Positions 39,290 through 60,247 of a stretch of 64,000 nucleotides of DNA are shown here, piece by piece. A program made the translations under genes and the position numbers. The DNA is from an uncultured Cytophagales bacterium (GTDB taxonomy: Bacteria > Bacteroidota > Bacteroidia > Cytophagales > Amoebophilaceae): the NCBI GenBank assembly GCA_946409305.1, contig CAMJVU010000002.1, positions 451 through 64,450 of the forward strand, written 5' to 3'. The notes under the pieces are model-generated. The model did not search any database. It was not told the DNA's origin and saw nothing but the letters and a program-made list of their open reading frames with translations. Numbering within the stretch: the stretch's first letter is position 1; every line of letters starts with the position of its first letter.

Positions 39290-40579
39290 CTATTCGCTCT
39301 TTTTCGTTACAGTTACAAAAATCCACTCAGGACAACCTCCACTGAATTGTAACGTATCTCCAAAATTCTTCAAGAAATCACGAATTTCTCCAACCTTAAC
39401 AGATACATCTCGATTAGAATCTAAGTTATAGAACTTTCCAGACTTTGGGTCCTTAACAACAGCAGTATAATGACCACTTTTGAAAATCGCCGAATTAAAC
39501 TCAAAGTTATAATTATCGAGAGACTTCTTTACCTTATCAAACCCCTCCTTCAAGTTTCCTATCTTACCATCTATATTGCTACTATTAATTTCATCGATAG
39601 GTCCAAATTCCTTTTTATACTCTTTAAAAACAATATTCCGAATATCTTCTAATACCATCTTATCTTCACTGAAAAACAAAATATTAAACGCACTATTTCC
39701 ATTTGTACTCCCCAACTTGTTAATAAAACGAAAATAAGGATGGGCAACTTGTACATCAAAATACTTCGCACCATCCAATGTATATTTTTCTACACGTACA
39801 GGATTTTCTCCAAGAAACTTTGAAATAGAATTATCTAAAATTTTATCTAAAATAAAACTACGTGGATTATCAATGGCTATCTTATTGAAATATGTACTAA
39901 CTTTGTCTTCTAAGGACTTATCAGTAAGTTCATACCTAAAACGAAAATATCCCTCAAGAAAACAGAAAGACATGACTTTACCCATTTGTTTCGTAGCATA
40001 ATAATCACGAGCAAGAAAATAATAGGCGTCACATGCTGGGTGAGGACTATCTTTAGTTCTCTTCTCAAAAAAACTAGCATAATGTCTCAACCCATGTTTA
40101 TATAACATTTCATAATGCTTCCTGAAATCAATATTGTAATTCCCATTTTTATTTCTCAATTCTTCGTATATATCCTTTATCATCTTCAAATTTAGATTTT
40201 TTTCATCATTATCGTACTTGTAATTCTTTATAAAATTCTGATAAGCAGGGACATTTAATAACGCAAGTATTGGAGCAATTAACCAACAACAATTGTATCT
40301 ATCCATCATGTCAGTACCATAATTCTGTAAGAAACTACAATTCAAGAATTCAAATCCATCATTTTTCAGGTTTTCACCCCAATTTACCTCCCCCAAAGAT
40401 CCTGATTCCAACTGAGAAGGATTACTCCCTGACACCACCCCAACACTCGAACGACACACCACAGACTCTTCAAAGGACCCCACTCGAGACATACCACACT
40501 CGTAACAAGAAATAAACAACGGAGAAATAAATAAAATAAACCTCCACACACTCTTATCAAAACTAATCATAATACCCAC
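39290..40579 (-). CDS. Divergent USP/UCH-like (C19) cysteine protease, third copy
   Basis: Signal with FISC. Degenerate Cys box DRYNCCWLIAPILALLNVPAYQNFI and His box FKSGHYTAVVKDPKSGKFYNLDSNRDV. Confidence 0.6.
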   Translation of the reverse strand: MGIMISFDKSVWRFILFISPLFISCYECGMSRVGSFEESVVCRSSVGVVSGSNPSQLESGSLGEVNWGENLKNDGFEFLNCSFLQNYGTDMMDRYNCCWLIAPILALLNVPAYQNFIKNYKYDNDEKNLNLKMIKDIYEELRNKNGNYNIDFRKHYEMLYKHGLRHYASFFEKRTKDSPHPACDAYYFLARDYYATKQMGKVMSFCFLEGYFRFRYELTDKSLEDKVSTYFNKIAIDNPRSFILDKILDNSISKFLGENPVRVEKYTLDGAKYFDVQVAHPYFRFINKLGSTNGNSAFNILFFSEDKMVLEDIRNIVFKEYKKEFGPIDEINSSNIDGKIGNLKEGFDKVKKSLDNYNFEFNSAIFKSGHYTAVVKDPKSGKFYNLDSNRDVSVKVGEIRDFLKNFGDTLQFSGGCPEWIFVTVTKKSE

Positions 40580-40650: not shown

Positions 40651-41427
40651 CTACATCTGATTCATACTTTTACTTTTACTTTTACTTTTACTTTTACTTT
40701 TACTTTTTTTTCGTGGTAAATCGATGTCAATCTTCACATCAAAAGTTCCCTCAAATAGCCATGTTCTACCAAAGAAAAATTCCAATGATGTAAAAGCTGA
40801 AAAACCTAAATTTTCCCATTTCCCTTTTATTAAACTTCCTACGTCAATTGTTCCCCAATTAATTCCCCAAGTAAAACTAGTTGGAGAAACACTTTCAAAA
40901 ATAGTAAGTTTCAAATTCATTCCTACCTTTTTAGGGTTGCATTCAAATTGTGAATTAACTAACACATCATCTGCGACACTCAACCACATCAGATTAATTG
41001 TCAACCTTCCTAAATAGCATTTCCTATCAACATAATCATTATTTCCTTCATTATTGTAACTCCAACAAATTCCCCACCCAAATTGAAACAACGGAACACT
41101 ATTCTTATCAAAACCAAAAGGAACATAAAAGTCCCCAATTAAAGTAAAACTACTGACCCATCCTCTCCGTTTAGTAACCCAATATTTGTGTAAGATGTTA
41201 ATTTTGAAAATGTATAATATTTGTGGAGGCATTTTGATGTTTGTACCACAAAATGCATCAACAGGGGCCATAAGTAAATTAAACGGAGTTGGCCCTGCGG
41301 TTATAGACAAAGATCCAAAATCTTTTTTTTTCGAATATTTACCTAGTCTTTTATGTCCTTCCTTGCTACTGTAACTATTTTGGATATTCATGTTTAAGAC
41401 AGCAACAATGATAAAAAACAACTTCAT
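40651..41427 (-). CDS. Small beta-barrel OMP-like protein, family member P3, with C-terminal (KS)7 tail
   Basis: Family motifs LSITAGP, FQFGWGICWSYNNEG...RKCYLGRLTINLMWLS, GMNLKLTIFE, WGINWGTIDVG and FFFGRTW, then KKSKSKSKSKSKSKS. Confidence 0.75.
   Translation of the reverse strand: MKLFFIIVAVLNMNIQNSYSSKEGHKRLGKYSKKKDFGSLSITAGPTPFNLLMAPVDAFCGTNIKMPPQILYIFKINILHKYWVTKRRGWVSSFTLIGDFYVPFGFDKNSVPLFQFGWGICWSYNNEGNNDYVDRKCYLGRLTINLMWLSVADDVLVNSQFECNPKKVGMNLKLTIFESVSPTSFTWGINWGTIDVGSLIKGKWENLGFSAFTSLEFFFGRTWLFEGTFDVKIDIDLPRKKSKSKSKSKSKSKSMNQM
40666..40707. repeat. Hexanucleotide microsatellite (ACTTTT)x7, coding (KS)7 on the minus strand
   Basis: Read directly; seven perfect units followed by a T run. 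Confidence 0.95.
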
Positions 41428-41460: not shown

Positions 41461-43233
41461 ATGAAGTCTGAAGATATGATGGTGCGTTCAAGGATTGTAT
41501 TTATAAGTTTCCTTATTTTAGCTATAGTCATCGTGTGGAGACTTCTAGATGTCGGGTTAATACATAAAACCAAGTTTCGGATGGCAAACAAGGAGATAAC
41601 ATTTGCCGTGAGAAACGTACCTGCAAAAAGAGGAAATATATATTCGAGTGATGGTAAATTATTAGCCACGTCTTTGACGTTTTTCCGTTTATCGATTGAT
41701 CCTACAATTGTTGACAAATCTCTTTTTGAATCGTATGTAGATGAATTATCTTCATGCTTGAGCATAATATTTAAAAACAAAACAAAAGAAGAATACATTA
41801 GTAAGATTAAAAAAGCCAGGAACAGTGGTAAACACTATTTGCAACTTGGTGATCGACCTATTTCATTTGATGAGAAAATAGTGTTGGACAAAACCAGAAT
41901 AGTAAAACTTGGTCGCTATAAAGGAGGTATTATATTTACTCCATTTGATAAGAGATTTAATCCATTTGAGAACCTTGGAAGTAGAGTAATTGGATACGTC
42001 AATGATAATTGTGGTGTTGTGGGAATTGAAAAAGAGTACGACGAATATCTTCGAGGACAAGATGGTAAAGCTTTGTTTCAACATATGGCTGGAGACTTTT
42101 GGCAAATTACACCTAGTCAAGATAATTATAATCCAGTGGAAGGGTGCGATATTATAACAACAATCAATTCAAATATAGAAGACATTGTCCATGATTGTCT
42201 CAAAAGAACTTTAATAAAAACCAAAGCAAATTATGGCAGTGCTATAATCATGGAAGTCAAAACAGGCGATATAAAAGCGCTAATAAACCTTTCAAGAGAT
42301 AAAAATGGTAAATATTCAGAGTCGTACAATTATGCAATGGGGTCATATGGTTCAAAAGAACCAGGATCGGTATTCAAATTATTATCATTCCTTGCCTTAT
42401 TTGAGGAGACTAACCTTCAACTCAACGACACCGTTGATACCGGTAATGGAGTGTACAAATTTGCCAATATATACATGCACGATACTCACCAATTTGGGAA
42501 GATTACTGTTAAAGAATCTTTTGAACACTCTTCTAATATTGCTGTTGCTAAATTGATCAATAATGCATTTGGGAACAATCCTAACAAATTTTTAAATCAT
42601 ATTAGAAGATTTAAACTTGACAAACCACTTGGTTTGTTTAAATACGGTGAAGCAGTACCATATGTAAAAAAATACAAAGACCGTAATTGGACAAGCGTTA
42701 CACTACCATGGATGGCAATGGGATATGAAATAAAGTTATCACCGATACAGATAATAACACTGTATAACGCAATTGCTAACAATGGAGTAATGATCAAACC
42801 TAAATTAATACAGTCAATTAATAGAGGAAATAGTTTCATAAAAAATTTCGAAACGGGAATTATATGCGATAAAATATGTTCTGATGCCACTTTGATAAAA
42901 TTAAAAAAATTATTAAAAGGAGTTATTGAACGTGGAACTGGTAAACGTTTTAATGATGGGATATATTCACTTTCTGGTAAGAGTGGAACTGTGAATAAGT
43001 TAATAAATGGGAAATATAGTAATAATACGACAACTACATTTGCTGGTTATTTCCCAAGTGAAAAACCAAAATACAGCTGCATTATTGTAATTGATGATCC
43101 CAAGGGCAAAGAATATCACTTCGCAGGTCAAGTGGCAGGACCTGTATTGTATGAAATAATGAATAAAATTGCTGTAAAAGATAGAGAAGGAAGTGAAACT
43201 ATAATGATTAATAGGAAGTGTATAGAAGAATAG
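41461..43233 (+). CDS. ftsI: Penicillin-binding protein, class B transpeptidase (FtsI/PBP3-like)
   Basis: N-terminal anchor, then GSVFK (SxxK), HSSNIA (SxN) and GKSGT (KSG). Confidence 0.85.
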   Translation: MKSEDMMVRSRIVFISFLILAIVIVWRLLDVGLIHKTKFRMANKEITFAVRNVPAKRGNIYSSDGKLLATSLTFFRLSIDPTIVDKSLFESYVDELSSCLSIIFKNKTKEEYISKIKKARNSGKHYLQLGDRPISFDEKIVLDKTRIVKLGRYKGGIIFTPFDKRFNPFENLGSRVIGYVNDNCGVVGIEKEYDEYLRGQDGKALFQHMAGDFWQITPSQDNYNPVEGCDIITTINSNIEDIVHDCLKRTLIKTKANYGSAIIMEVKTGDIKALINLSRDKNGKYSESYNYAMGSYGSKEPGSVFKLLSFLALFEETNLQLNDTVDTGNGVYKFANIYMHDTHQFGKITVKESFEHSSNIAVAKLINNAFGNNPNKFLNHIRRFKLDKPLGLFKYGEAVPYVKKYKDRNWTSVTLPWMAMGYEIKLSPIQIITLYNAIANNGVMIKPKLIQSINRGNSFIKNFETGIICDKICSDATLIKLKKLLKGVIERGTGKRFNDGIYSLSGKSGTVNKLINGKYSNNTTTTFAGYFPSEKPKYSCIIVIDDPKGKEYHFAGQVAGPVLYEIMNKIAVKDREGSETIMINRKCIEE

Positions 43234-43317: not shown

Positions 43318-44574
43318 ATGACATTTGATGAAATGAATTTAAAGCCAGAGATAAAGACTTCTTTGTCAAGGTTAAAGTTCACCACCCCTACAGATATCCA
43401 ATCTAAGTCAATTCCAGTAGCACTTGAAGGTAAGGATATAATAGGTTCGGCCCAGACAGGAACTGGAAAGACGTTGGCATTTTTATTACCTATTGTATCC
43501 GGTTTATTGGATAACAAAGATGGCAAGGCACTTATTGTGGAACCAACAAGAGAATTGGCACAGCAGGTACTCAATAATGTACGAAAGCTATTGGACAAAG
43601 ATATTTTTGTTAAATATGTTTTGTTGATCGGGGGAGAACCGTTTTTCCCACAAACACGGAATTTGAAACATAATCCTAGACTCATTATTGGAACGCCAGG
43701 ACGTATAATAGATCATATTCAACGAGAATCTTTGGACTTAAGTCAATGTAAATACCTTGTTCTAGATGAGACTGACCGTATGTTTGAGATGGGATTCTAT
43801 GAACAATTGGAAAAGATATTTGGTGCCATTCCAGAAGAAAGACAAACTCTGATGTTCTCAGCAACATTTCCTAAGGAAGTAGAACGTTTGGCATTACAAC
43901 ACATGCACAATCCCGAGCGAATATTTGTGCAAAATAATGAGCAGGCCAACGTAATAGCAGATAATTTGGTTCAAGAAGAAATAAGGGTAGACTCTAAGAG
44001 TAAGTATTCTGAATTAGTTAATCAATTAAATCAAAGAGAAGGAACCGTAATAGTGTTTGTAAAAACTAAGGCTGATGCCGAATATATAGCGAATAAGTTA
44101 TTCAAGGATGGTTTTACTGCCTGTGCAATGCACGGAGATTTGAGGCAAAGAACAAGAGAACGAAACATAAGAGACTTTAGAAGTGGAAGATATAGAATAA
44201 TGGTGGGAACTGATGTTATAGCTAGAGGATTAGATGTTCCACATGTAAAACATGTTATCAATTACAGCATTCCTCTTGCACCTGAAGATTACATACACCG
44301 TATTGGACGTACTGCCAGGGCCGGAGCTGATGGATACGCTGTTAGTTTTATATCAGATGAGGATAAGAGACCATGGCAGGCTATACAGGAAATGTTACAT
44401 CCAGAGCTTAAAAAGGAAAGAATTAATGAAAATGAAAAACGGAGATTTGGAAGAGGCGGAAAAAGATTTAGTAAGTTTGGTGATAAACGATTTGGAAATA
44501 GAAAGTTCAGAAATTTCGGAGGATATCACAAACCTACCAGAAAATACAACAATTATAATGATGATACTTTATGA
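43318..44574 (+). CDS. DEAD-box ATP-dependent RNA helicase (motif II reads DETD)
   Basis: Q-motif region FTTPTDIQ, AQTGTGKT, PTRELA, VLDETDRM, SAT, HGDLRQRTRE and RIGRTARAG, with a basic RG/K-rich tail. ATG 43318 is preferred over track TTG 43291. Confidence 0.9.
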   Translation: MTFDEMNLKPEIKTSLSRLKFTTPTDIQSKSIPVALEGKDIIGSAQTGTGKTLAFLLPIVSGLLDNKDGKALIVEPTRELAQQVLNNVRKLLDKDIFVKYVLLIGGEPFFPQTRNLKHNPRLIIGTPGRIIDHIQRESLDLSQCKYLVLDETDRMFEMGFYEQLEKIFGAIPEERQTLMFSATFPKEVERLALQHMHNPERIFVQNNEQANVIADNLVQEEIRVDSKSKYSELVNQLNQREGTVIVFVKTKADAEYIANKLFKDGFTACAMHGDLRQRTRERNIRDFRSGRYRIMVGTDVIARGLDVPHVKHVINYSIPLAPEDYIHRIGRTARAGADGYAVSFISDEDKRPWQAIQEMLHPELKKERINENEKRRFGRGGKRFSKFGDKRFGNRKFRNFGGYHKPTRKYNNYNDDTL

Positions 44575-46964
44575 AAATATCATTGCAGTGGTTGAACGAT
44601 TTTATCGATATAATCAAATATCCTGTTAGTTGTATATCTGACAAGCTGACAAGTTGTGGTTTAGAAGTCGGGAACGTAGACACGTATGAGTCCATCCCTG
44701 GGAGCTTTGAAGGACTGGTCGTTGGAGAAGTTGTAGATTGTAAACAACATCCGAATGCTGATTTATTGCGTTGTCTTAAGGTTGATATAGGAGACAAAGT
44801 GTTGAATATAGTGTGCGGAGCTCCAAATGCTAGAAAAGGAATAAAGGTCGTAGTTGCACAAGTTAACACAATGATATATCCATTCGAAGGTGATCCTATT
44901 GTTATAAAGAAATCAAAGATAAGAGGGGAATTTTCTGAGGGAATGTTATGTGCAGAAGATGAAGTAGGAATAGGTAAAAACCACAACATGATAATAGAGG
45001 TTGATAATAGTTATGTCAATGGAACTCCAGTTAATGAAGTTTACAATGTAAAAAAACAACAAATATTGGACGTTGAATTGACTCCTAATCGCGGAGATTC
45101 ATGTTCTCATTTAGGAATAGCAAGAAGTTTAAAAGCATTGTTTAATGAAGAAATTAAAAATCAGTCAACGTTGCAATTGGATAAGAATGAGATGTCGTCT
45201 TACGTCATAAATTCAGCTCACAATGGATGTAAAAGATATGATTGCATTGTCGTTAAAAATGTAAAGATTAGCGAATCTCCCAAATATGTAAAAGAAAGAC
45301 TATTAGCTGTTGGAGTAAGACCAATAAATAATGTTGTTGATATAACTAATTACGTCATGTTAGAATTGGGTCAACCGATGCATGCTTATGACTTTGGAAG
45401 AATAAATGGAAACCTTCACGTGAGATTGGCAAACAATAATGAATCCATAAAAGCTTTGAATGGAAGTGAATATCAATTGGCGAGTACAGATCTTGTGATT
45501 GCAGATGACATGAGAGCACTGGGAATTGCAGGAATTATAGGAGGACAATATTCTTCTATCCAAAACGACACAGTGGATATATTGTTCGAAGCAGCTTATT
45601 TTGATCCTATTGTAGTTAGAAAATGTGCATCTAGATTACATATAAAAACTGATGCCTCATATCGTTTCGAAAGAGGATGTGATATAGATATGCCGTTGAA
45701 AGCGTTACAGAGAGCATGTTGGCTCTTAAAAGAGCAATGCCCAGAAGCTATTGTAGATAAATATCACGAATATTTTAATGGACAAAAACCTGATGTAGTC
45801 AATTTATCGTTGAGATGGTTCAATAGTATTGTAGGACAAGAGATTTCACATGATAAAATATTTGAGATACTTAAAAAATTAGATTTTAAGATATTTGTAG
45901 TTGACAGTGATAACGTATCAATAACTGTCCCATTGTACAAAACAAACATAAAGAGAGACGTTGACATTGTTGACGAATTTATGAGATTTTACGGATACGA
46001 AAATATTAAAACAACTGAAACTCTAGTACATAACATTGATACCGTTAACTCTAATTTAGATATTTCTTCGGAGTATAGAATCCGTGAACGTATCTGTAAT
46101 TATTTATCGTCAAATGGATTTTACGAAATAAGTACTAATTCTTTGATATCTAGCAAGAATGTAGATGGTCAATGTAATATAAAAATTTCAAACCCATTAA
46201 GTAATGAACACGATACATTACGTCCAGATCTGATATACTCTGGAATGCGTGTTATAAGGGATAACATTAACAATGGAAACAAAAATTTAAAGTTGTTCGA
46301 GTTAGGAAAACATTATCATAAAGTTGATCAGCGATGTGGTGAATCTCTTTTTTTAGGAATATTTGTGACAGGAGAGACGGATGAGTCGTGGATGTTAAAG
46401 AAACGTCAGTTATCATTTTTTGATCTCAAATCAATTGTTGTATCTTTATTAAAAACGTTTGGAGTATATGATTATTCTGAAACGATTACACAAAATAATC
46501 AGTACTTTTCGCAATGTCTGAGTATCGATATCAAAGAGGATAGTATTGCAAAATGTGGCATTGTTTCTAGTTCAATGAGAGAAAAATTTAGTGTAGAACA
46601 GGAAGTCTTTTACGCAAGTATCGATATTGATGTTTTCTTCAAACATATACGGAATAAAAAAACAAAAGATTACGAACCAGTATCACAATATCCATCCGTA
46701 AAAAGAGATTTATCTATAATCGTCGATAAGAGTACAACTTTTTATGACATAAATGATATCATTCTAAAAACAAATAAGTTAATAAAGAATGTTAATGTTT
46801 TTGATGTGTACGTCGGAGATCAGATTCCTGATGGAAAGAAATCATACGCCATATCAATAATATTCCAAGATAATGATGGAACGCTGGAAAGTAATAAAGT
46901 ACACAAAATAACAAAAAAAATAGTTGACAATTTATTCAATAGATTTGGTGCTACAATAAGGTAA
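44571..46964 (+). CDS. pheT: Phenylalanine--tRNA ligase beta subunit
   Basis: 797 aa. It has the typical N-terminus MKISLQWLNDFIDI, a tRNA-binding domain (HPNADLLRCLKVDIGD) and B3/4 and B5 wording. There is a 4-nt overlap with the helicase stop. Confidence 0.9.
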   Translation: MKISLQWLNDFIDIIKYPVSCISDKLTSCGLEVGNVDTYESIPGSFEGLVVGEVVDCKQHPNADLLRCLKVDIGDKVLNIVCGAPNARKGIKVVVAQVNTMIYPFEGDPIVIKKSKIRGEFSEGMLCAEDEVGIGKNHNMIIEVDNSYVNGTPVNEVYNVKKQQILDVELTPNRGDSCSHLGIARSLKALFNEEIKNQSTLQLDKNEMSSYVINSAHNGCKRYDCIVVKNVKISESPKYVKERLLAVGVRPINNVVDITNYVMLELGQPMHAYDFGRINGNLHVRLANNNESIKALNGSEYQLASTDLVIADDMRALGIAGIIGGQYSSIQNDTVDILFEAAYFDPIVVRKCASRLHIKTDASYRFERGCDIDMPLKALQRACWLLKEQCPEAIVDKYHEYFNGQKPDVVNLSLRWFNSIVGQEISHDKIFEILKKLDFKIFVVDSDNVSITVPLYKTNIKRDVDIVDEFMRFYGYENIKTTETLVHNIDTVNSNLDISSEYRIRERICNYLSSNGFYEISTNSLISSKNVDGQCNIKISNPLSNEHDTLRPDLIYSGMRVIRDNINNGNKNLKLFELGKHYHKVDQRCGESLFLGIFVTGETDESWMLKKRQLSFFDLKSIVVSLLKTFGVYDYSETITQNNQYFSQCLSIDIKEDSIAKCGIVSSSMREKFSVEQEVFYASIDIDVFFKHIRNKKTKDYEPVSQYPSVKRDLSIIVDKSTTFYDINDIILKTNKLIKNVNVFDVYVGDQIPDGKKSYAISIIFQDNDGTLESNKVHKITKKIVDNLFNRFGATIR

Positions 46965-46981: not shown

Positions 46982-47884
46982 ATGAAGTTTGGAGTGTTTT
47001 TATTGCCTGTTTTATTCTGGTGTGGGTGGTATTGTCAAGAAGGCGAAAATGATGTACAACGAAATGAGAATTTAGATAAGAGAGAAAGTAGCCGTATAAG
47101 GGAGGATTGTCACACAGGAAGAAATGTTGATCCGATGGTTTCTCTTGTCGAGTACCTCAATGAAGGAAAATATGGGGAAATTTGGCGTGAGGGTACTGAT
47201 TTGAGACAATGCCTTGATCCGTTGATCGAAGAATTTAGGGGAATGTCTACTAAAAAAAGAACTGAGTTACTAGGTGATTTTGGAGTTATACTATTAGACA
47301 TTGATAGGTCTTTTGGGCGTAAAGTTCTTAATGTTAATGAGTATCTAAAGTCTTTATTAAATATTCTTTTTGATTTTTCTATAAGAGAAGGGAACGGATA
47401 TTCCCAGGGATATAATTATGTAGCGGTGGAGTGTTTGATTCAACGTAAAAATGATTACAATGAGAGTAAAAAATTGTTTTTTGATGTAATGACTAAGTTG
47501 AAAATAAAGTGTTTAGGTTACGAAGGTAATTACATCGGTTTATTTAAAAAATTTATAAAAGATAATTCTTTTAGAGGTCTTGTTTTAGTTGCTATCAGGG
47601 AAAAAGCAGATAAAACTTTTTTCGATAAGGAGTTTGAAGATTTATGGATCGGCGGGTTTTTGCAAGGATTATTATTCAGTTTTTTTAGTAGATCCCTTGA
47701 TTCCGGGAACTCATGGAAACGCATATTGTTATGTTTAGAAAAAGGAGAATGTTTTGACGTGTTTAATGAGTTTTGTTTAGCTTTGGATTATGTTTTAACA
47801 TGTGTTCGTGATAAATGTGGAAATGGGGGGAAGGTGGATTTTTATGTTGTGCATGATATTGTGAAAAAATATCTTAATGGTTAG
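46982..47884 (+). CDS. TBC-domain (RabGAP)-like protein with signal peptide
   Basis: MKFGVFLLPVLFWCGWYC, then VILLDIDRSFGRK (IxxDxxR arginine-finger motif) and, about 30 aa later, GNGYSQGYNYVAVECLI (YxQG glutamine-finger motif). Confidence 0.65.
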   Translation: MKFGVFLLPVLFWCGWYCQEGENDVQRNENLDKRESSRIREDCHTGRNVDPMVSLVEYLNEGKYGEIWREGTDLRQCLDPLIEEFRGMSTKKRTELLGDFGVILLDIDRSFGRKVLNVNEYLKSLLNILFDFSIREGNGYSQGYNYVAVECLIQRKNDYNESKKLFFDVMTKLKIKCLGYEGNYIGLFKKFIKDNSFRGLVLVAIREKADKTFFDKEFEDLWIGGFLQGLLFSFFSRSLDSGNSWKRILLCLEKGECFDVFNEFCLALDYVLTCVRDKCGNGGKVDFYVVHDIVKKYLNG

Positions 47885-48019: not shown

Positions 48020-48928
48020 GTGATTATGTTTAAATCTGATATCCTCGAAAGTTTTGATTTTGAGTTTAAAAAATATCTCCTATACAGTGGAAAATTCGTT
48101 AAAAATACACGTCAAGAGTTTTTAACACAGATACGTAAGGAATTTGATGTAAAAGATGGTTCTGTTTCTTATAGCAGGTGCCATTCTGTGAGTTATTTGT
48201 CTATCGTTGAATCTGTTGTGAAAGTTTTTAACTTGATTTGTTCAGCAAAAAATTGTGAAATTAACATTACCTACGATGATAGTGTTGCTATCGCTTTAAG
48301 GTATTTATCAGGATTGGTTCTTGCTGTTAAGAAAAGTCCGTTACTTATTTCAGATGACTATAAGTCTATGTCTGTTAATAATATTTACAACAGAATATTG
48401 GAGTCTGACAATATTGAAGATGCATTTGTAGAATACGCTATATCTAAAAATCTCGTTCTAAAATTGATTTTTAGATTGTTACGTAACCCAAACGATAAAG
48501 ATTTTGTTGAACATTTGTTGGATTACGGGAACATATTAATTGAAAAACTAAACAATTGTCATATGAATTTAAGAGTTGGTCCTGCAAAATATAATTCAGA
48601 AGTCCGTGAGTATTACGATATCATAAGTTTTGAGAGTTGTGAAAATGGAATTATTATCGATAATGAGATGGATTGTTGTGCTCTTTCTCACATAAAACAT
48701 CTAATGTATCCACTTGAAGATAATATAAAATTTTTAGCTCCTAGATCGGTGAACCTTCCCGATATGTATAAAAGGAATGGAGAATACGAGATTATGACCA
48801 GCTTCCAAAAGTGTGATGGGAAAATTAAAATGACAGGAGAAAAAGTTAATGATAAAAACTTTTATATCAGAGATTGGTACACAAAAGGTAAAGACCTAAT
48901 CATTTTTCAGAGTCATGAATATTCGTGA
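48020..48928 (+). CDS. Hypothetical protein, no signal peptide, no recognisable domain
   Basis: 302-aa ORF on the same strand, 136 nt after the TBC-like gene. The start context GGGTGATT-ATG resembles other accessory genes. Confidence 0.5.
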   Translation: MIMFKSDILESFDFEFKKYLLYSGKFVKNTRQEFLTQIRKEFDVKDGSVSYSRCHSVSYLSIVESVVKVFNLICSAKNCEINITYDDSVAIALRYLSGLVLAVKKSPLLISDDYKSMSVNNIYNRILESDNIEDAFVEYAISKNLVLKLIFRLLRNPNDKDFVEHLLDYGNILIEKLNNCHMNLRVGPAKYNSEVREYYDIISFESCENGIIIDNEMDCCALSHIKHLMYPLEDNIKFLAPRSVNLPDMYKRNGEYEIMTSFQKCDGKIKMTGEKVNDKNFYIRDWYTKGKDLIIFQSHEYS

Positions 48929-50993: not shown

Positions 50994-51365
50994 ATGATGG
51001 AATCTCTTAAAGTTATATTAAATGGTAAATATAAAATGCAAAGGAGTGAATTTTTATCATTTGCTGAACCTTGTAAATCTATCGATGAATCACAAGATAT
51101 TGTAAAAAAATACAAAAAAAAATATCACGACGCAAAACATATTTGTTGGGCTTTAAGTATAGATAACGGGGAAACAACATGTTATAGTGATAATGGAGAA
51201 CCGTCTGGAACTGCGGGAATTCAGATATTTAAAGAGATTTGTGCAGCAAATCTTACAAACTTAATAGTGGTTGTTATACGTTATTTTGGAGGAGTTAAAT
51301 TGGGGAAAAAAGGACTATCGGAAGCTTATAAAACATCCGTCAACATATGTTTAAGTAGTAAATAA
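50994..51365 (+). CDS. yigZ: YigZ / IMPACT-family (UPF0029) protein, N-terminal domain only
   Basis: DAKHICWALS, SDNGEPSGTAG and VVVIRYFGGVKLGKKGLSEAYK. Confidence 0.8.
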   Translation: MMESLKVILNGKYKMQRSEFLSFAEPCKSIDESQDIVKKYKKKYHDAKHICWALSIDNGETTCYSDNGEPSGTAGIQIFKEICAANLTNLIVVVIRYFGGVKLGKKGLSEAYKTSVNICLSSK

Positions 51366-51387
51366 TTAGGTTCAGATAGATTTTAAT

Positions 51388-52725
51388 ATGACTGATAGAA
51401 TAAGGGTTGGAATTTTATTTGGCGGTAGATCACGGGAACGAGAAGTATCTTTTGCAGGAGGAAGAACAGTTTATGATAGTATAGATAAAGAACTATACGA
51501 ACCAATCCCTATTTTTGTTGATGGGCACAACACGTTAATTAAGTTAAATTGGCAATATCTGTATCGTGGAACCATTAGGGATTTTTATCCTTCGAAAGAA
51601 ATGAGACCAAATGATCTTAAAAATATCAGAATATACGATGATTCAATAAAAAATATAGATTATTCACAATTGGGAGATATTGGCACAGTTATAAGGATAG
51701 AAAATTTAAAAAATATAGTTGACGTTATTTTCCTGATTCTTCATGGGTTAGACGGAGAAGATGGAAATATCCAAGGTATGTTAAATTTCTTAGACATCCC
51801 ATATACAGGATCTGGTATTTTGGGTTCTGCCATTGGAATAGATAAGGTATTCCAAAAAGAAATAATGAAGCAATATGGATATGAAGTCAATGAGTGTACA
51901 ATAATAACCAGTGAAGACTGGAATACCAAAAGAAATAAAATAATGGAGGATGTGTTATCAAAATATCATGTTCCATTCATCATTAAAAGTTCTTCTCAAG
52001 GATCTTCGATAGGCGTTTCAAGGGTAGATAATGTAGACAAACATGTTATATCTGATGTCATAAATAAAAGTTTTGGACAGTTAGTTGTACATGGCAATTC
52101 CTGGAATAAGATGAGTTATCAACAAAAAGAACAATTAGTATTTGATCAAATAGATTATCGTTACGGGATTGGATATCCAGTTATTATTGATGACTTGATA
52201 ATCTATTCTCCACTGGAGTTAATAAATCGTATAGATGGTCATTTACATAATAATGATGAATGTGTCATTTCTTCAAGTCAAAGATGTAATCATGTTATTG
52301 TCGAAGAATTTATAGAAGGTAGAGAATTCTCTTGTGTCGTTGTGCAAGATCATGGGTATAACCCTGTGGCTTTTCCTCCGACAGAAATAATAAAATCTGA
52401 TGGAATTTTTGATTACAGGAGTAAGTACTTACCAGGTGCAACGGTCAAACAAACCCCAATGAATGTTGATAAAATCACCTTAGAAAAGATAAGAGAAACA
52501 AGTGTACAAGTCTTTAAGGATTTGCATTTTAATGTTTACGCTAGAATAGATGGCTTCTTAACTAAAGAAAATGAGATAATAATAAATGATCCAAATACAA
52601 TAGCAGGAATGGAACCATCATCATTCATATTTCAACAAGCAGCAGAAATAGGGCTAACTCCAACAGATTTGATAACCTTCATATTAACGAACGCTACCAA
52701 ACCATCACAGAAACTAATAAAATAA
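51388..52725 (+). CDS. ddl: D-alanine--D-alanine ligase, unusually long (445 aa)
   Basis: RVGILFGGRSREREVSFAGGRTV, LHGLDGEDGNIQGMLNFLDIPYTGSG, PFIIKSSSQGSSIGV and EEFIEGREFSCVVV, with an ATP-grasp C-terminus. Confidence 0.85.
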   Translation: MTDRIRVGILFGGRSREREVSFAGGRTVYDSIDKELYEPIPIFVDGHNTLIKLNWQYLYRGTIRDFYPSKEMRPNDLKNIRIYDDSIKNIDYSQLGDIGTVIRIENLKNIVDVIFLILHGLDGEDGNIQGMLNFLDIPYTGSGILGSAIGIDKVFQKEIMKQYGYEVNECTIITSEDWNTKRNKIMEDVLSKYHVPFIIKSSSQGSSIGVSRVDNVDKHVISDVINKSFGQLVVHGNSWNKMSYQQKEQLVFDQIDYRYGIGYPVIIDDLIIYSPLELINRIDGHLHNNDECVISSSQRCNHVIVEEFIEGREFSCVVVQDHGYNPVAFPPTEIIKSDGIFDYRSKYLPGATVKQTPMNVDKITLEKIRETSVQVFKDLHFNVYARIDGFLTKENEIIINDPNTIAGMEPSSFIFQQAAEIGLTPTDLITFILTNATKPSQKLIK

Positions 52726-53847: not shown

Positions 53848-54852
53848 TTATTCTGAACTATCATCATTCACAAATTGTTCATCCTGGTTGATATGGTCAA
53901 ACAAATTCCACGTTTTACCAATAAAAAATTCAAAATTACAAAAGGATAATAATACTTGTTTTTTTAAATAAAAAAGAAGATTATTTCTGTCAATCATAGC
54001 CAAGTCAACGATAACAAATCTAAAACCTAAAGTAAAACCATTAGAGTAGACCACTTTTAGTGGAGTAATTGTCAAATTAAACCCAAAATTTACCAGCAAA
54101 AATGCATCCTTAAAATAATAAACAGGTTCTTTAACAGGTTCTTTAACAGGTTCTTTAACAGGTTCTTTTAACACAACAGTGTAACTCTTGCCATAATACC
54201 TTTTCTTTATAAAAAAAGCCGGATCTTCGCCTTGTCCAAATATAGTCACACTATGAGGCGTCTTAGTAACCTTTACCCTATACTCACCTTCTTCTAATTC
54301 CGCAAGATTAAAATACTCATCACAATTAGTTCCTGGTTTTATGTTCACAAGACTTCCCAAAAGTACATTAAATGAGATATCTCCACCGAACTGTTTTTTC
54401 TCACTTTTATTATATTTCCATGTCATTCCACCACCAATTTGCAATATAGGAAAACAGTATTGACTACCCTCAGAAGTATTCTTTTCATTATATAAATTTC
54501 CCAACACCGTACATTTTGCGATGAGACCGATCTTCCAATTGAATGGATAATATTCATAGCAAAGGTTAGTTCTTAAAAGATAAAATAATCCAAACCAACC
54601 TTCAGTTTTTCTAAAATCAACAAATTTATTTAGAGCATAAACGATACTCCCAATATTTAATCCTCCACACGTAACAGATAAATGATGATTACCTCTAAAA
54701 ACAATATTGTCTCCATTATTATCAGGAAAACTTTTCACTTGAGTATCTTTTAACTCGTTGCCACTCTCTGGAATTATATTATCATTGCTAGACGCATTAA
54801 CAGAATTTAAGACTATAGTAACAACTAAATGTTGGAGGATTCTAAATTTCAT
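53848..54852 (-). CDS. Small beta-barrel OMP-like protein, family member P4, with about 70-aa insertion containing (KEPV)4
   Basis: MKFRILQHLVVTIVLNSVNASS signal. Family motifs HHLSVTCGGLNIGS, ILQIGGGMTWKYNK...GGDISFNVLLGS, FNLTITPLK and FEFFIGKTW. Between the middle strands there is an insertion, EYFNLAELEEGEYRVKV...VLKEPVKEPVKEPVKEPVYYF. Confidence 0.7.
   Translation of the reverse strand: MKFRILQHLVVTIVLNSVNASSNDNIIPESGNELKDTQVKSFPDNNGDNIVFRGNHHLSVTCGGLNIGSIVYALNKFVDFRKTEGWFGLFYLLRTNLCYEYYPFNWKIGLIAKCTVLGNLYNEKNTSEGSQYCFPILQIGGGMTWKYNKSEKKQFGGDISFNVLLGSLVNIKPGTNCDEYFNLAELEEGEYRVKVTKTPHSVTIFGQGEDPAFFIKKRYYGKSYTVVLKEPVKEPVKEPVKEPVYYFKDAFLLVNFGFNLTITPLKVVYSNGFTLGFRFVIVDLAMIDRNNLLFYLKKQVLLSFCNFEFFIGKTWNLFDHINQDEQFVNDDSSE
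54121..54168. repeat. 12-nt tandem repeat (AACAGGTTCTTT)x4, coding (KEPV)4 on the minus strand
   Basis: Read directly; four perfect units. Confidence 0.95.
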
Positions 54853-54903
54853 AAAATAAAATATTAATATTGCCATTTCATAAATAAAATATTAATATTG
54901 CAA
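54847..54903. repeat. Tandem duplication (29 + 28 nt) of the P4 translation-start region
   Basis: tttcataaaataaaatattaatattgcca / tttcataaataaaatattaatattgcaa. Each copy carries a minus-strand ATG. Confidence 0.9.
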
Positions 54904-55022: not shown

Positions 55023-55775
55023 TTAAATGTCAATTTTGATTTTGGCATCAACATCTACTGTCAAATCTACCATCTTCCCGATAAATACTTCAATATTTCC
55101 GCCATTTATGAAAGTTAATATATCAGGGATACTGTTGTTTCTTTTCCCTATCAACCATCCTAGATCAAGAACACCGAAATTAATACCCCAATGGAGACCT
55201 GAGGGATAAACAATCTCAATTGGTGTCAACTTTAAGTTAACTCCAATATTTTTAGGTTTAAATTCGATACTAAGATCATCATCCAAAATACTTCCCCACA
55301 TCCCATTAGCAGTTAATCTTCCACTGCAACATCTCCTACTATTTTTTTTACTAGAACCATTGTGATTGTAACTCCAGATAATTCCAAAACCGATCTGCAA
55401 TATAGAACTGCCGTAGTCGTTGTTCCCAGTGATCGTGATATAACGATCTCCCAAAAAATTTATACCGTAACAAATTCCAAAACATCTATTAAACCAATAA
55501 GAACCTGAAACATGTGTGCGTAAAAATAACAGTAAAGCCCATGGTTGCAATTGAATAATACCTAATATTGGAATTGTATTTATTGCCCCTAATGTAAAAG
55601 AAAGTCGACTTTTACTATTGAGAGATAACATCTTACAATAACCTTTTTTATGATTTGATTTTCTCCTGGTGATATTTACAACTGAATTTTTATCGTTATT
55701 ATCAGGTAAAACAACACCATTAAATAGTATCAAAACAAAACAACATTTGGATTTTTGAAAGGATGATATCGACAT
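55023..55775 (-). CDS. Small beta-barrel OMP-like protein, family member P5
   Basis: Family motifs LSFTLGAIN, SYWFNRCFGI, ILQIGFGIIWSYNHNG...RRCCSGRLTANGMWGS, GVNLKLTPIE, WGINFGVLDLG and VFIGKM. Confidence 0.75.
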   Translation of the reverse strand: MSISSFQKSKCCFVLILFNGVVLPDNNDKNSVVNITRRKSNHKKGYCKMLSLNSKSRLSFTLGAINTIPILGIIQLQPWALLLFLRTHVSGSYWFNRCFGICYGINFLGDRYITITGNNDYGSSILQIGFGIIWSYNHNGSSKKNSRRCCSGRLTANGMWGSILDDDLSIEFKPKNIGVNLKLTPIEIVYPSGLHWGINFGVLDLGWLIGKRNNSIPDILTFINGGNIEVFIGKMVDLTVDVDAKIKIDI

Positions 55776-55779: not shown

Positions 55780-57162
55780 TCAACATACGATACTCCATGG
55801 TTCTAGTACTACCGGTTCTTTATTGTAAGCTTCTATGATATCATCATTTAAATATTTTTTATCTACAATACACTCATAAACATATTCACTGAACCATTCA
55901 TCCGACATTATAAATATTCCTTTTTTACCTACATCTTCTCCCCATGAATTCTGTACTTTCCAACGAACAGGTGCATTGTTGCTATCTAAATGAACGCCAG
56001 TTAGGGTCATAGCATGATTACATTCACTATTCAACAATAAAGCACGTTCCATCTTGTCGTATTTAAACTCAACGCCAAACATCTCAGATATATTAGATAC
56101 TTCTGTTGCCAGATAACCTTCTTCACGATACATTTCACTGGTCACGTCACAAGCAAACCATAATGGAGTGTTATCCTTCAATGATTTTATTGCTGTTTCC
56201 TTTATCAGATTTATCGGAACGTTTAAACTTTTATACGCGTTTTTACTAGTTTCTTCCATCATGTTTACGCAACCTTTATTCGTGTATGTTTGATAAAAAG
56301 GATACTGTAATGATGGATAATTTGTTAGAATTACGTAATCGTCAAGGTTGCACGATAAATATGTTTTCGAAAACTCCAGTGGAGTTGTTTTAATTGTTTT
56401 TATAACTTTTTTTTCCTCATCTTCATCCTTTTTCTTATCCTCATTCTTATTTTTCTTATCATCTTCAAGTTCGAAATCGAATGTAAACTCATCTACAGGC
56501 AAACCTATACATATGGCTAATATTTTATAAACTTCCTGTAGTGCATTTTCTTTTAAGTCGTAAACTACCTGTAAATCTTTGCTGTTCTTTCGAATTAAAG
56601 ATATATACTTAGTTACAACTGTATTGATCAGAATGTTCATCTCACAAGAACGAGAACTAACATCTGTTTCCCCCATTGCTTCTTTAGGACATATTCCATA
56701 TTTCTTCACCAATTTTACAAAATAGTGCCAAAAACCACCATCATTATCTCCAGATAAAAGCAGATCATATCTAAGTACACGAGAATCAATAGGTTCATTG
56801 ATGTGTTTGATTATATATTCAAGAGTAGTATTGGTTTTTTCAAGTTTATCATAAAACATCAAATAAGATTCAGATAACTCAATATCCTTGACATGTAGAT
56901 TTTTCTTTACAATTTCTCTCAATATATTCAAACCGGCGAACATCCAACATCTTCCAGACTTTTTCTGATTTGTAACGCTGGACATATCTTTAACTTCAAC
57001 GTTGAATATTGGTTGTAGCTTGAAAGACTCCTGCGTATTGAAGGCAGAATCAAATACTCCATTATTTTGTACTGCATTGCTAACGATTCTGAAATTTTTA
57101 TCTAGTAAAACACTGTTTTTCATCCTTTGTAAATCGTTTGTAGTTATTGTTTTATTACCCAT
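55780..57162 (-). CDS. pepC: Aminopeptidase C / bleomycin hydrolase (peptidase C1B)
   Basis: Catalytic Cys wording QKKSGRCWMFAGLN and His region CNHAMTLTGVH. It has a K/D/E-rich insertion DDKKNKNEDKKKDEDEEKK. Confidence 0.9.
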   Translation of the reverse strand: MGNKTITTNDLQRMKNSVLLDKNFRIVSNAVQNNGVFDSAFNTQESFKLQPIFNVEVKDMSSVTNQKKSGRCWMFAGLNILREIVKKNLHVKDIELSESYLMFYDKLEKTNTTLEYIIKHINEPIDSRVLRYDLLLSGDNDGGFWHYFVKLVKKYGICPKEAMGETDVSSRSCEMNILINTVVTKYISLIRKNSKDLQVVYDLKENALQEVYKILAICIGLPVDEFTFDFELEDDKKNKNEDKKKDEDEEKKVIKTIKTTPLEFSKTYLSCNLDDYVILTNYPSLQYPFYQTYTNKGCVNMMEETSKNAYKSLNVPINLIKETAIKSLKDNTPLWFACDVTSEMYREEGYLATEVSNISEMFGVEFKYDKMERALLLNSECNHAMTLTGVHLDSNNAPVRWKVQNSWGEDVGKKGIFIMSDEWFSEYVYECIVDKKYLNDDIIEAYNKEPVVLEPWSIVC

Positions 57163-59857: not shown

Positions 59858-60247
59858 TTAAGTTAGCGTAAAACTCCAACCTAGTGCAACCTTAATATTA
59901 TTAATCGTTCCACTAACTACTGCACTTCCGAAACCACCTTCCCAAAATCTAAGAATATCAATAGATATAAAATTGATCTCTAACCTGAAAGGACCTTTAG
60001 TAAACTTAAACGGTACCACATTTATGCATAATGCTACGTTTTTAATCACCCTATCAAGTGACATATTCATCGTTATATCTCCTCCAAATGAACCATATTT
60101 CTGCTCAAAATTACTTCCTCTACCATTGTAGTTCCATAAAAATCCTACCCCTAAAGTTGAATAAAGATAAGAATTGTTACCATCGCTCTTAGAAGCACAT
60201 ATACAATCCAAGATCCCTACTCTTAGCACTATAAACATATTGATCAA
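59858..60247 (-). pseudogene. 5'-truncated member (P6) of the beta-barrel OMP-like family
   Basis: Only the C-terminal two thirds is present: LGVGFLWNYNGRGSNFEQKYGSFGGDITMNMSL, INVVPFKF and LGWSF. There is no signal peptide and no LS(V/I)T.GG block in frame. Upstream DNA (60248-60300) reads YIGSEGGTLVTK-stop in another frame. Confidence 0.5.

What the first reader, a model, noticed from the sequence alone, without database searches (positions are those of the whole stretch)
46982..47884. Secreted TBC-type RabGAP-like protein with both catalytic fingers
After a signal peptide (MKFGVFLLPVLFWCGWYC) the 300-aa ORF reads ...GVILLDIDRSFGRKVLNVNEYLKSLLNILFDFSIREGNGYSQGYNYVAVECLI... This matches TBC-domain motif B (IxxDxxR, arginine finger) and motif C (YxQG, glutamine finger) at the canonical spacing of about 30 residues. 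That is the dual-finger signature of eukaryotic Rab GTPase-activating proteins. Bacteria have no Rab GTPases, so a bacterial TBC domain implies direct inactivation of host Rabs, that is, control of vesicle traffic around the symbiont. Known bacterial RabGAPs (for example VirA/EspG and LepB) are structural mimics with little sequence similarity. A copy with canonical eukaryotic motif wording suggests acquisition from a host. It sits directly after pheT, with no mobile-element scars.
Basis: partly seen in the sequence, partly recalled or inferred. Interest (0 to 1): 0.8.

Follow-up and report, generated by a model that had tools for sequence, protein, structure and literature searches.

The report
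Fast-evolving TBC-like orphan symbiont protein
A small gene in what is probably a rumen-ciliate endosymbiont has a weak but better-than-chance resemblance to the catalytic half of eukaryotic Rab-inactivating (TBC) enzymes, which suggests but does not prove that the bacterium tampers with its host's vesicle traffic.

Summary
The 300-aa ORF (46982-47884, +) and the quoted motifs are real. I103-x-x-D106-x-x-R109 and Y140-x-Q142-G143 are invariant in all four known orthologues, although the residues around them vary.

Pfam RabGAP-TBC is the only family hit, but it is sub-threshold: 20.9 bits, or 24.3 after trimming the N-terminus, against a cut-off of 25.2 (E 3e-4 to 3e-5). TBC HMMs built from PDB sequences single the ORF out of the whole window and beat thousands of shuffles, always in the same register (motifs A, B and C).

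Several results argue for caution:
- The hit vanishes when five motif residues are mutated.
- Two orthologues miss the Pfam model.
- hhalign probability is only 15 %.
- The C-terminal half shows no TBC signal.
- AlphaFold could not fold the protein, so the fold is unverified.

The gene is an orphan restricted to one lineage of rumen metagenomes. Its composition is native. It evolves more than ten times faster than its neighbours (dN/dS about 1) around a frozen core (aa 109-200).

A 2025 preprint already reports a TBC RabGAP at another locus in rumen-ciliate Amoebophilaceae symbionts, probably the same lineage.

Verdict: a plausible (about 55 %) divergent TBC-derived effector. Host acquisition and secretion are unproven. 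Interest is moderate.

The parts
46982..47884 (+). 300-aa orphan ORF (stop codon included). It is the candidate TBC-like protein and lies 17 nt downstream of pheT.
   Evidence: Intact orthologues sit in conserved synteny in L061-L065; the L066 allele (P0001) is truncated at 276 aa. Only three relatives exist among 5.8 billion clusters.
46982..47035 (+). N-terminal hydrophobic segment MKFGVFLLPVLFWCGWYC (aa 1-18), followed by an acidic stretch (QEGEND). It is a putative signal peptide, lipoprotein-like leader or membrane anchor.
   Evidence: Hydropathy 2.0-2.3 over aa 1-14. Signal peptidase II is encoded in the window (PF01252). The cleavage type was not testable here.
47162..47491 (+). TBC-like region (aa 61-170). 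This is the only part with detectable similarity to RabGAP-TBC domains.
   Evidence: Pfam PF00566: aa 100-176 match profile positions 47-119 of 216. The 5-sequence TBC HMM aligns aa 64-169. hhalign aligns aa 61-155. All use the same register.
47171..47185 (+). Motif A-like 'YGEIW' (aa 64-68). W68 aligns with the invariant Trp of RxxxW, and the Arg position is occupied by Tyr.
   Evidence: Y64, G65 and W68 are invariant in A1.
47288..47308 (+). Motif B 'ILLDIDR' (I103, D106, R109), the putative arginine finger.
   Evidence: Aligned to IxxDxxR by Pfam, hhalign, HMMER and MAFFT. I103, D106 and R109 are invariant, while positions 105, 107 and 108 vary among orthologues.
47399..47410 (+). Motif C 'YSQG' (Y140, Q142, G143), the putative glutamine finger.
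   Evidence: Same alignments as motif B. Invariant in all four orthologues.
47306..47581 (+). Frozen core (aa 109-200), with 3 nonsynonymous and 0 synonymous differences from strain L061.
   Evidence: the 47400-47550 bin diverges by 0.7 %, against 6-13.5 % in the flanking bins of the gene.
47492..47881 (+). C-terminal half (aa 171-300), predicted helical, with no detectable similarity to the TBC C-terminal subdomain or to anything else.
   Evidence: no better than shuffles. AlphaFold pLDDT is below 50. One allele (P0001) is truncated at aa 276.
48020..48928 (+). Conserved neighbouring orphan ORF (about 300 aa), always downstream in synteny and under purifying selection. A functional link is unknown.
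   Evidence: No Pfam or NCBIfam family. dN/dS 0.12-0.23.

Best explanation
The ORF encodes a lineage-specific, rapidly evolving protein. Its region aa ~61-170 is derived from, or closely mimics, the N-terminal catalytic subdomain of a eukaryotic TBC RabGAP. The protein is exported through its N-terminal hydrophobic leader and is exposed to, or released into, the cytoplasm of the host, probably a rumen ciliate. There it engages GTP-bound host Rab GTPases. R109 (IxxDxxR) and Q142 (YxQG) are inserted in trans into the Rab active site to trigger GTP hydrolysis, which switches off Rabs locally and keeps degradative vesicle traffic away from the symbiont.

Shown: the ORF, the motifs, their conservation, an above-chance similarity to TBC profiles in the correct register, the eukaryote-like gene context, and the unusual evolutionary rate.

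Inferred: homology as opposed to convergence, the fold, export to the host, Rab binding, catalysis and the biological role.
For: Pfam RabGAP-TBC is the only family hit: E 3.1e-4 at 20.9 bits, 21.5 bits for P0001, and 24.3 bits (E 2.8e-5) after removing aa 1-60.

An HMM built from five PDB TBC domains gives 15.0 bits against a maximum of 8.0 in 2,000 shuffles. Its alignment spans aa 64-169 and covers motifs A, B and C.

The ORF is the sole outlier in a six-frame scan of the window.

Orthologues P0001, P0002 and P0003 score 17.2, 14.2 and 8.9 bits, each above all 1,000 of its own shuffles; P0001 and P0002 align over the same span as the window ORF, and P0003 more shortly (aa 98-169).

hhalign against two TBC profiles finds the same register, with P about 0.0016.

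MAFFT independently places W68, D106, R109, L125, Y140, Q142, G143 and L152 in invariant TBC columns.

Similarity extends beyond the fingers (GEIW/GEVW, LIEEF/LIAEY, R[ST]F, SL..[IV]L..[FY]S, GYxQG...VA).

The motif residues are invariant although aa 58-108 are hypervariable.

The protein is predicted all-helical and has TBC-domain size.

The window also encodes two USP/UCH deubiquitinases and a eukaryotic-type kinase.

A preprint reports a TBC RabGAP in rumen-ciliate Amoebophilaceae symbionts, probably this same lineage.
Against: The score is below Pfam's curated cut-off of 25.2 bits.

The hit disappears when D106, R109, Y140, Q142 and G143 are changed to Ala, so it is motif-driven. Orthologues P0002 and P0003 give no Pfam TBC hit.

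hhalign probability is only 15-16 %.

A narrower 26-sequence TBC HMM gives just 6.1 bits, and 1 of 2,000 shuffles is as good.

No PDB TBC chain is found by phmmer or hmmsearch at E <= 10.

No TBC protein appears among 1.84 billion representatives at E <= 1e-3.

The C-terminal half contributes no TBC signal.

AlphaFold failed (pLDDT 34.5). The seeded model is confident only where TBC sequences were supplied, and Foldseek E-values are 0.25 or worse.

The Arg of motif A is Tyr.

dN/dS of about 1 and a truncated allele are compatible with relaxed constraint.

Delivery to the host is unknown.
Confidence: 0.4

Rival explanations
1. Chance or convergent resemblance. The ORF is a lineage-specific helical envelope or periplasmic protein of unrelated function, and its 45-residue stretch happens to carry DxxR...YxQG. 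The sub-threshold Pfam hit is then a false positive, of the kind expected now and then when many windows are scanned.
For: The score is below the Pfam cut-off and driven by five residues, and two orthologues fail the model. hhalign probability is 15 %. There is no C-terminal signal, no PDB or database TBC relatives and no structural confirmation. The TBC signal fades in the most divergent orthologue. The N-terminal hydrophobic leader would by default send the protein to the bacterial envelope.
Against: Expected false hits at this score are about 3e-4 per protein, or about 0.02 for all proteins of the window. Four different profiles agree on one register that also covers motif A. Motif residues are kept invariant inside a hypervariable segment. 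The hit falls in an ELP-rich window whose probable lineage is reported to use a TBC protein.
Confidence: 0.35
2. A non-catalytic Rab-GTP binder or decoy, like Ehrlichia Etf-2. The TBC-like fingers are used to dock on active host Rabs and to block access of host GAPs or effectors, without stimulating hydrolysis.
For: Etf-2 carries the same two motifs without a recognisable TBC domain. It binds RAB5-GTP with a Kd of about 21 nM, needs R188 and Q245 for localisation, and has no GAP activity (PMC6156607). Here too only the finger-bearing region resembles TBC and the C-terminal subdomain does not.
Against: In this ORF the similarity around the fingers is broader than in Etf-2, for which only a manual alignment was possible. 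There is no direct evidence for either activity.
Confidence: 0.15
3. A decaying gene. It is a former effector under relaxed constraint on its way to pseudogenisation in a shrinking genome.
For: Overall dN/dS is 1.1, against 0.09-0.23 for the neighbours. One allele is truncated at 276 aa. The genome is highly reduced (0.53-0.6 Mb according to the preprint).
Against: A 300-codon frame stays open in at least three diverged alleles of a 32 % GC genome. The core aa 109-200 is almost invariant, with 3 nonsynonymous and 0 synonymous differences. That is strong constraint, not decay. The mosaic pattern fits diversifying selection on the flanks better.
Confidence: 0.1

Closest known systems
Eukaryotic TBC-domain RabGAPs (Pfam PF00566; for example Gyp1p, RABGAP1 4NC6, RABGAP1L 3HZJ, TBC1D1/4, USP6NL)
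   Same: The ORF has the ordered motifs xGEIW, IxxDxxR and YxQG at canonical spacing (W to D 38, D to Q 36 residues, against 33 and 40 in a RABGAP1-like protein). It is 25-27 % identical over 75-91 aligned columns. It is all-helical and of comparable size.
   Different: It scores below the family cut-off. The Arg of motif A is Tyr. The loop after the Arg finger is about 4 residues shorter. The C-terminal subdomain is not recognisably similar. It has an N-terminal hydrophobic leader, is bacterial, and evolves rapidly.
[quoted passage not shown] Cillophilus ruminis' MAG-392 (Amoebophilaceae symbiont of rumen ciliates; bioRxiv 10.1101/2025.07.29.667580)
   Same: It comes from the same kind of organism and probably the same lineage: rumen origin, 32-33 % GC, tiny genome and many eukaryote-like proteins. 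It is a proposed host-Rab-directed protein.
Ehrlichia chaffeensis Etf-2 (T4SS effector)
   Same: It is a bacterial protein without a recognised TBC domain that carries TBC-like Arg and Gln finger motifs, which are conserved among strains.
   Different: Etf-2 is a T4SS substrate with a C-terminal signal, and its motifs lie near the C-terminus. It was shown to bind RAB5-GTP and to lack GAP activity. Nothing has been tested for this ORF.
Bacterial RabGAP mimics VirA/EspG (Shigella/EPEC) and LepB (Legionella)
   Same: They have the proposed function: inactivation of host Rab1 by supplying catalytic residues in trans (PMC3674391 abstract; PMC6156607 discussion).
   Different: They have different folds and no sequence similarity. 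No EspG or LepB family hit appeared for this ORF at E <= 10. They are T3SS or T4SS substrates of pathogens.

Membership tests
RabGAP-TBC domain (Pfam PF00566) | Score at or above the curated gathering threshold (25.2 bits) of the family HMM | tested here: not met
   20.9 bits for the full ORF, 21.5 for P0001 and 24.3 for aa 61-300. P0002 and P0003 give no hit.
RabGAP-TBC domain (Pfam PF00566) | Arginine-finger motif IxxDxxR | tested here: met
   I103, D106 and R109 are aligned to the motif by Pfam, HMMER, hhalign and MAFFT, and are invariant in four orthologues.
RabGAP-TBC domain (Pfam PF00566) | Glutamine-finger motif YxQG, about 35 residues after the Arg finger | tested here: met
   Y140, Q142 and G143 are present and invariant, with 33 residues between R109 and Q142.
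RabGAP-TBC domain (Pfam PF00566) | Motif A RxxxW in the first helix | tested here: inconclusive
   W68 aligns with the invariant Trp, and G65-E-I resembles GEV. The Arg position is Tyr64.
RabGAP-TBC domain (Pfam PF00566) | C-terminal helical subdomain (WFxxLF ... RxxD region) homologous to TBC | tested here: not met
   The C-half alone scores -0.7 bits, and 328 of 1,688 shuffles do as well. Shuffling it does not lower the Forward score. The W222 and D240 column matches in one MAFFT run were not reproduced by MAFFT --add.
RabGAP-TBC domain (Pfam PF00566) | Reliable profile-profile match (HH-suite probability above about 90 %) | tested here: not met
   Probability is 15.8 % against 5 TBC sequences and 15.3 % against 26, with P about 0.0016. 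The query profile is very shallow (Neff 1.1).
RabGAP-TBC domain (Pfam PF00566) | All-helical TBC fold with both fingers lining one groove | tested here: inconclusive
   AlphaFold on the family alone gives pLDDT 34.5, and Foldseek on that model is meaningless. The model seeded with TBC N-subdomain sequences gives pLDDT 73-84 only for aa 81-170. Its top Foldseek hits are TBC chains at E 0.25-1.4 and TM 0.22-0.29, and the test is circular.
RabGAP-TBC domain (Pfam PF00566) | Rab-specific GTPase-activating activity that depends on the Arg and Gln fingers | not testable with these tools
   This needs biochemistry.
VirA/EspG and LepB bacterial RabGAPs | Sequence membership in the EspG/VirA or LepB families | tested here: not met
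   No such Pfam family at E <= 10 and no PDB sequence hit at E <= 10.
HNH_repeat (Pfam PF18780) | Match of aa 55-96 to the homing-endonuclease-associated repeat | tested here: not met
   The only distant database hits (P0004-P0006) are HNH_repeat proteins. The best single repeat scores 10.6 bits, and the E-value came from summing 5-11 repeats. The ORF itself does not hit PF18780.
Sec or lipoprotein-exported protein | Cleavable signal peptide or lipobox | not testable with these tools
   A hydrophobic aa 1-14 segment followed by Cys14 and Cys18 and an acidic stretch is seen, and LspA is present in the window. There is no canonical lipobox ([LVI][ASTVI][GAS]C), and no predictor was available.

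The most novel reading that the evidence does not exclude
The ORF is a second, highly divergent TBC-derived RabGAP of a rumen-ciliate endosymbiont. It is displayed on or released from the bacterial surface. Its catalytic core (aa 109-200) is frozen while its Rab-recognition surfaces (aa 58-108 and the C-terminal half) are under diversifying selection. That would be a molecular arms race with host Rab GTPases, visible between strains that are otherwise about 99 % identical.
Probability: 0.25. Interest if true: 0.65.

Novelty: new member of a known kind. Interest (0 to 1): 0.45.

Why it matters
If the protein is a working TBC-type GAP, it would be one of very few bacterial proteins that use the eukaryotic dual-finger TBC chemistry through recognisable sequence similarity. 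The known bacterial RabGAPs VirA/EspG and LepB instead rely on unrelated folds. It would also give a concrete handle on how an uncultured endosymbiont survives inside rumen ciliates, organisms that matter for ruminant digestion and methane output.

The mosaic of a frozen core and hypervariable flanks would make it a natural system for studying co-evolution between an effector and host Rabs.

The concept of a TBC RabGAP in this kind of symbiont has already been put forward in a 2025 preprint, for another gene. This ORF would extend an existing finding, not open a new one. It may still turn out to be a motif coincidence.

Tried and rejected
(1) Direct homology searches all failed to link the ORF to TBC proteins. 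These were phmmer and hmmsearch against PDB sequences, the 5.8-billion-cluster search at E <= 10, and the exhaustive HMMER search of 1.84 billion representatives. They show the family is an orphan with four close members.

(2) The only distant hits (P0004-P0006) pointed to an HNH_repeat-like motif at aa 55-96. I rejected it as a domain assignment because single repeats score at most 10.6 bits.

(3) AlphaFold on the four-sequence family alignment was useless (pLDDT 34.5), and so was Foldseek on that model.

(4) I ran a threading-style AlphaFold job with TBC sequences supplied only for the N-terminal subdomain, to see whether the C-half would fold on its own. It did not. The resulting TBC matches in Foldseek are non-significant and circular.

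(5) The apparent W222/D240 match to the TBC 'WFxxLF...RxxD' hallmarks in one MAFFT alignment was tested with realigned shuffles and HMMER Forward scores and rejected as not robust.

(6) Two genome-contig scans, one with the ORF and one with pheT, found no close genome. The organism's identity rests on indirect evidence: relatives in metagenome assemblies, one labelled STEW19, which I take to be a rumen data set; 32 % GC; and the match to the preprint's description. NCBIfam hits and cluster names gave no taxonomy.

(7) I looked for a canonical TBC gene elsewhere in the window and found none.

(8) I looked for mobile-element scars, promoters and terminators around the gene and found nothing above background.

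(9) Recent horizontal transfer was considered and rejected. GC is 33.2 % and GC3 27.9 %, the same as in neighbouring genes.
Full report
OBSERVATION. The ORF at 46982-47884 (+) is real and reads exactly as quoted. It starts 17 nt after the stop codon of pheT (44571-46964). A 135-nt spacer and a second orphan ORF of about 300 aa (48020-48928) follow it. The protein has four parts:
- A strongly hydrophobic N-terminus (aa 1-14, Kyte-Doolittle 2.0-2.3), followed by Cys14, Cys18 and an acidic stretch.
- A polar linker.
- The segment ...YGEIW(64-68)...ILLDIDRSF(103-111)...GYSQG(139-143)....
- A helical C-terminal half.

The IxxDxxR and YxQG motifs are present, with 33 residues between R109 and Q142.

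IS IT MORE THAN CHANCE? Pfam's RabGAP-TBC model (PF00566) is the only family reported for the protein at E <= 10. It scores 20.9 bits with E 3.1e-4 over 24,736 models, and aa 100-176 match profile positions 47-119 of 216. That is below the curated cut-off of 25.2 bits. Removing aa 1-60 raises the score to 24.3 bits (E 2.8e-5), still below the cut-off.

I pulled real TBC-domain sequences out of PDB alignments and built independent profiles from them:
- An HMM of five TBC domains scores the ORF at 15.0 bits, against a maximum of 8.0 for 2,000 composition-matched shuffles. Its alignment (aa 64-169) also puts 'GEIW' on TBC motif A.
- In a six-frame scan of the whole 64-kb window with that HMM, the ORF is the only outlier (14.9 bits; next best 5.2).
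- All three orthologues beat all 1,000 of their own shuffles (17.2, 14.2 and 8.9 bits); P0001 and P0002 align over the same span as the window ORF, and P0003 more shortly (aa 98-169).
- hhalign against a 5-sequence and a 26-sequence TBC alignment finds the same register, aa 94-168 and aa 61-155.
- MAFFT, left to choose its own register, places W68, D106, R109, L125, Y140, Q142, G143 and L152 in columns that are invariant across TBC proteins.
- The similarity is not limited to the finger residues (GEIW/GEVW, LIEEF/LIAEY, R[ST]F, SL..[IV]L..[FY]S, GYxQG...VA).

The resemblance is therefore real and statistically above chance. About 0.02 false hits of this strength are expected for all proteins of the window against all of Pfam.

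WHY IT IS STILL NOT A PROVEN TBC DOMAIN.
- The Pfam hit disappears when D106, R109, Y140, Q142 and G143 are changed to Ala. Orthologues P0002 and P0003, which keep these residues, give no Pfam TBC hit at all. The score is motif-driven and fragile.
- hhalign probabilities are only 15-16 %, with P about 0.0016 for a single comparison.
- A narrower 26-sequence animal TBC HMM gives 6.1 bits, which 1 of 2,000 shuffles equals.
- No PDB TBC chain is retrieved by sequence at E <= 10. The exhaustive HMMER search of 1.84 billion representatives found no TBC protein at E <= 1e-3.
- The C-terminal half (aa 170-300) carries no TBC signal. It scores -0.7 bits alone, and 328 of 1,688 shuffles do as well. Shuffling it does not lower the whole-protein Forward score (6.1 versus a mean of 5.6).
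- The W222 and D240 matches to the 'WFxxLF...RxxD' hallmarks seen in one MAFFT run were not reproduced by another alignment procedure, where 295 of 300 shuffled C-halves scored at least as well.
- AlphaFold on the four-sequence family alignment failed (mean pLDDT 34.5), and Foldseek on that model gave nothing.
- In a second AlphaFold job I supplied TBC sequences only for the N-terminal subdomain. Only that region became confident (aa 81-170, pLDDT 73-84) and the C-half stayed below 50. Foldseek then ranked 3HZJ, 4NC6, TBC1D20 and TBC1D14 first, but at E 0.25-1.4 and TM 0.22-0.29. The test is circular because the model was seeded with TBC sequences.

The fold, and the position of R109 and Q142 in a catalytic groove, remain unverified.

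WHAT KIND OF GENE IT IS. The family is an orphan. Only three relatives (82-98 % identity) exist among 5.8 billion protein clusters. All come from ENA or Logan metagenome assemblies, one of them labelled STEW19, which I read as a rumen data set (my inference).

Synteny is conserved in these relatives: PBP2, DEAD helicase, pheT, ORF, ORF2, mscS(-), rsmH, Impact_N, ddl.

GC (33.2 %) and GC3 (27.9 %) match the neighbouring genes. There are no repeat or IS scars and no promoter or terminator signal above background. The gene is probably co-transcribed with pheT (inference from the 17-nt gap). Nothing points to recent transfer.

Its evolution is unusual. Against strain L061 the neighbouring genes show dN 0.006-0.008 and dN/dS 0.09-0.23. 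The ORF shows dN 0.094, dS 0.084 and dN/dS 1.1.

The pattern within the gene is mosaic:
- aa 109-200 are almost frozen (3 nonsynonymous and 0 synonymous differences).
- aa 58-108 have 22 nonsynonymous and 3 synonymous differences (dN/dS about 2).
- aa 1-57 and aa 201-300 have dN/dS of about 0.8.

At DNA level the genome background diverges by 1-2 %. The gene diverges by 6-13.5 %, except in the 47400-47550 bin, where divergence is 0.7 %. Inside the hypervariable segment, I103, D106 and R109 are invariant while positions 105, 107 and 108 change. One allele (P0001) is truncated at aa 276.

A 300-codon open frame kept in several diverged alleles of a 32 % GC genome, together with the frozen core, argues for a functional gene. 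The flanks are under either diversifying selection or relaxed constraint.

ORGANISM AND CONTEXT. The window (31.8 % GC) lies on a 65.7-kb NCBI/ENA contig. It encodes:
- housekeeping genes (pnp, mreBC, PBP2, clpB, ileS, gyrA, ddl, lspA);
- two bona fide USP/UCH deubiquitinases (E 6e-24 and 6e-42);
- a eukaryotic-type protein kinase (E 5e-28);
- a family of hypervariable small outer-membrane-like paralogues.

A 2025 preprint (bioRxiv 10.1101/2025.07.29.667580) describes Amoebophilaceae endosymbionts of rumen ciliates: 'Ca. Cillophilus ruminis' MAG-392 (0.53 Mb, 33 % GC) and CAMJVU01 (0.6 Mb, 32 % GC). They have many eukaryote-like proteins and an extracellular contractile injection system. The window fits that description. 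This assignment is an inference, because both genome-collection scans found no close genome.

[quoted passage not shown] It sits next to glyS, two U-box genes and eCIS genes, which is a different neighbourhood from the pheT locus here. The idea of a TBC RabGAP in this kind of symbiont is therefore already on record. The present ORF would be an additional, much more divergent and unannotated candidate. I could not compare the two sequences.

MECHANISM. Most likely (about 0.4): a divergent TBC-derived domain is exported through the N-terminal leader and presented to the host cytoplasm. There it supplies R109 and Q142 in trans to host Rab-GTP, as Gyp1p-type GAPs do (an established mechanism for the family), and so inactivates Rabs around the symbiont. 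The route to the host is unknown. The leader is not a canonical lipobox, although LspA is present.

A closely related alternative (about 0.15) is an Etf-2-like binder. Ehrlichia Etf-2 has the same two motifs without a TBC domain, binds RAB5-GTP tightly and has no GAP activity (PMC6156607).

The main rival (about 0.35) is that this is an unrelated helical envelope protein with a coincidental motif pair. Gene decay (about 0.1) fits the overall dN/dS but not the frozen core.

COMPARISON AND NOVELTY. Functionally the nearest analogues are eukaryotic TBC RabGAPs. Among bacterial proteins they are the annotated TBC protein of the same kind of symbiont, Etf-2, and the fold-unrelated mimics VirA/EspG and LepB. 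Membership in PF00566 cannot be claimed. The finger motifs are met, but the family threshold, the C-terminal subdomain and a reliable profile-profile match are not, and the fold test is inconclusive.

If the TBC reading is true, this is a new and highly divergent member of a known kind, in a lineage where that kind has just been reported.

No eukaryotic relative was detected and the composition is native. 'Secreted' is only suggested.

VERDICT. Interest is moderate (0.45). The most distinctive new fact is the evolutionary mosaic: a frozen finger-bearing core flanked by hypervariable segments, in strains that are otherwise about 99 % identical. That makes the gene a good candidate host-interaction factor whatever its fold turns out to be.

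Noticed in passing
window 1697-3130 (-) and 25224-26660 (+): Two eukaryote-type ubiquitin-specific proteases (Pfam UCH PF00443, E 5.6e-24 and 6.5e-42). Both have N-terminal hydrophobic, Cys-containing leaders. A third ORF, 39290-40579 (-), has a USP-like 'CCWLIAPILALLN' box but no Pfam hit.
   Followed up: partly
window 13308-14270 (-): A eukaryotic-type Ser/Thr protein kinase (Pkinase PF00069, E 4.6e-28) with an N-terminal hydrophobic segment. It is another likely host-directed protein.
   Followed up: partly
window 19304-19987 (+), 23013-23876 (-), 40651-41427 (-), 53848-54876 (-), 55023-55775 (-), 59858-60247 (-): A paralogous family of small proteins that end in '...F.GK.W' and have no Pfam or NCBIfam family. 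They are possibly outer-membrane beta-barrels. Two of them coincide with strain-divergence hot spots (54150-54900 and 55650, 10-12 % against a 1-2 % background).
   Followed up: partly
window 48020-48928 (+): An orphan ORF of about 300 aa, always immediately downstream of the TBC-like ORF in every related contig. It is under purifying selection (dN/dS 0.12-0.23) and has no family hit or signal peptide. It could be a functional partner.
   Followed up: partly
window 47144-47269 (aa 55-96 of the ORF): The segment 'W.EGTDLRQCLDPLIEEFRGMSTKKRTEL' resembles the unit of the HNH_repeat (PF18780) found in multi-repeat proteins of high-GC bacteria (P0004-P0006). Single-repeat scores are at most 10.6 bits, so it is probably a coincidence, but it overlaps the region aligned to TBC helices 1-3.
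   Followed up: yes
window 26831-27862 (+): A 343-aa protein with a hydrophobic leader, an acidic low-complexity stretch and a very Cys-rich C-terminal part with many CxxC pairs. It has no significant Pfam family and may be a zinc-finger, RING or B-box-like eukaryote-like protein.
   Followed up: no
window 42300-42450, 51300-51450, 55950-56400: Further short hot spots of strain divergence (7-11 %) in a background that is otherwise about 99 % identical. They lie inside PBP2, at the 3' end of the Impact_N ORF and the start of ddl, and in the pepC-like peptidase gene. This suggests localised recombination or selection.
   Followed up: no
window 9430-10011 (-) together with the leaders of the ORFs at 1697, 25224, 26831, 39290 and 46982: Signal peptidase II (LspA, PF01252, E 4e-26) is retained in this reduced genome. 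Several eukaryote-like or orphan proteins share a hydrophobic leader followed by Cys, which hints at a common lipoprotein-like or surface export route for candidate effectors.
   Followed up: partly
window 34291-34857 (-): A protein with two DUF1599 domains (PF07659, E 2.6e-46). From my own knowledge this family is found mostly in Bacteroidota, which fits the proposed Amoebophilaceae origin.
   Followed up: no
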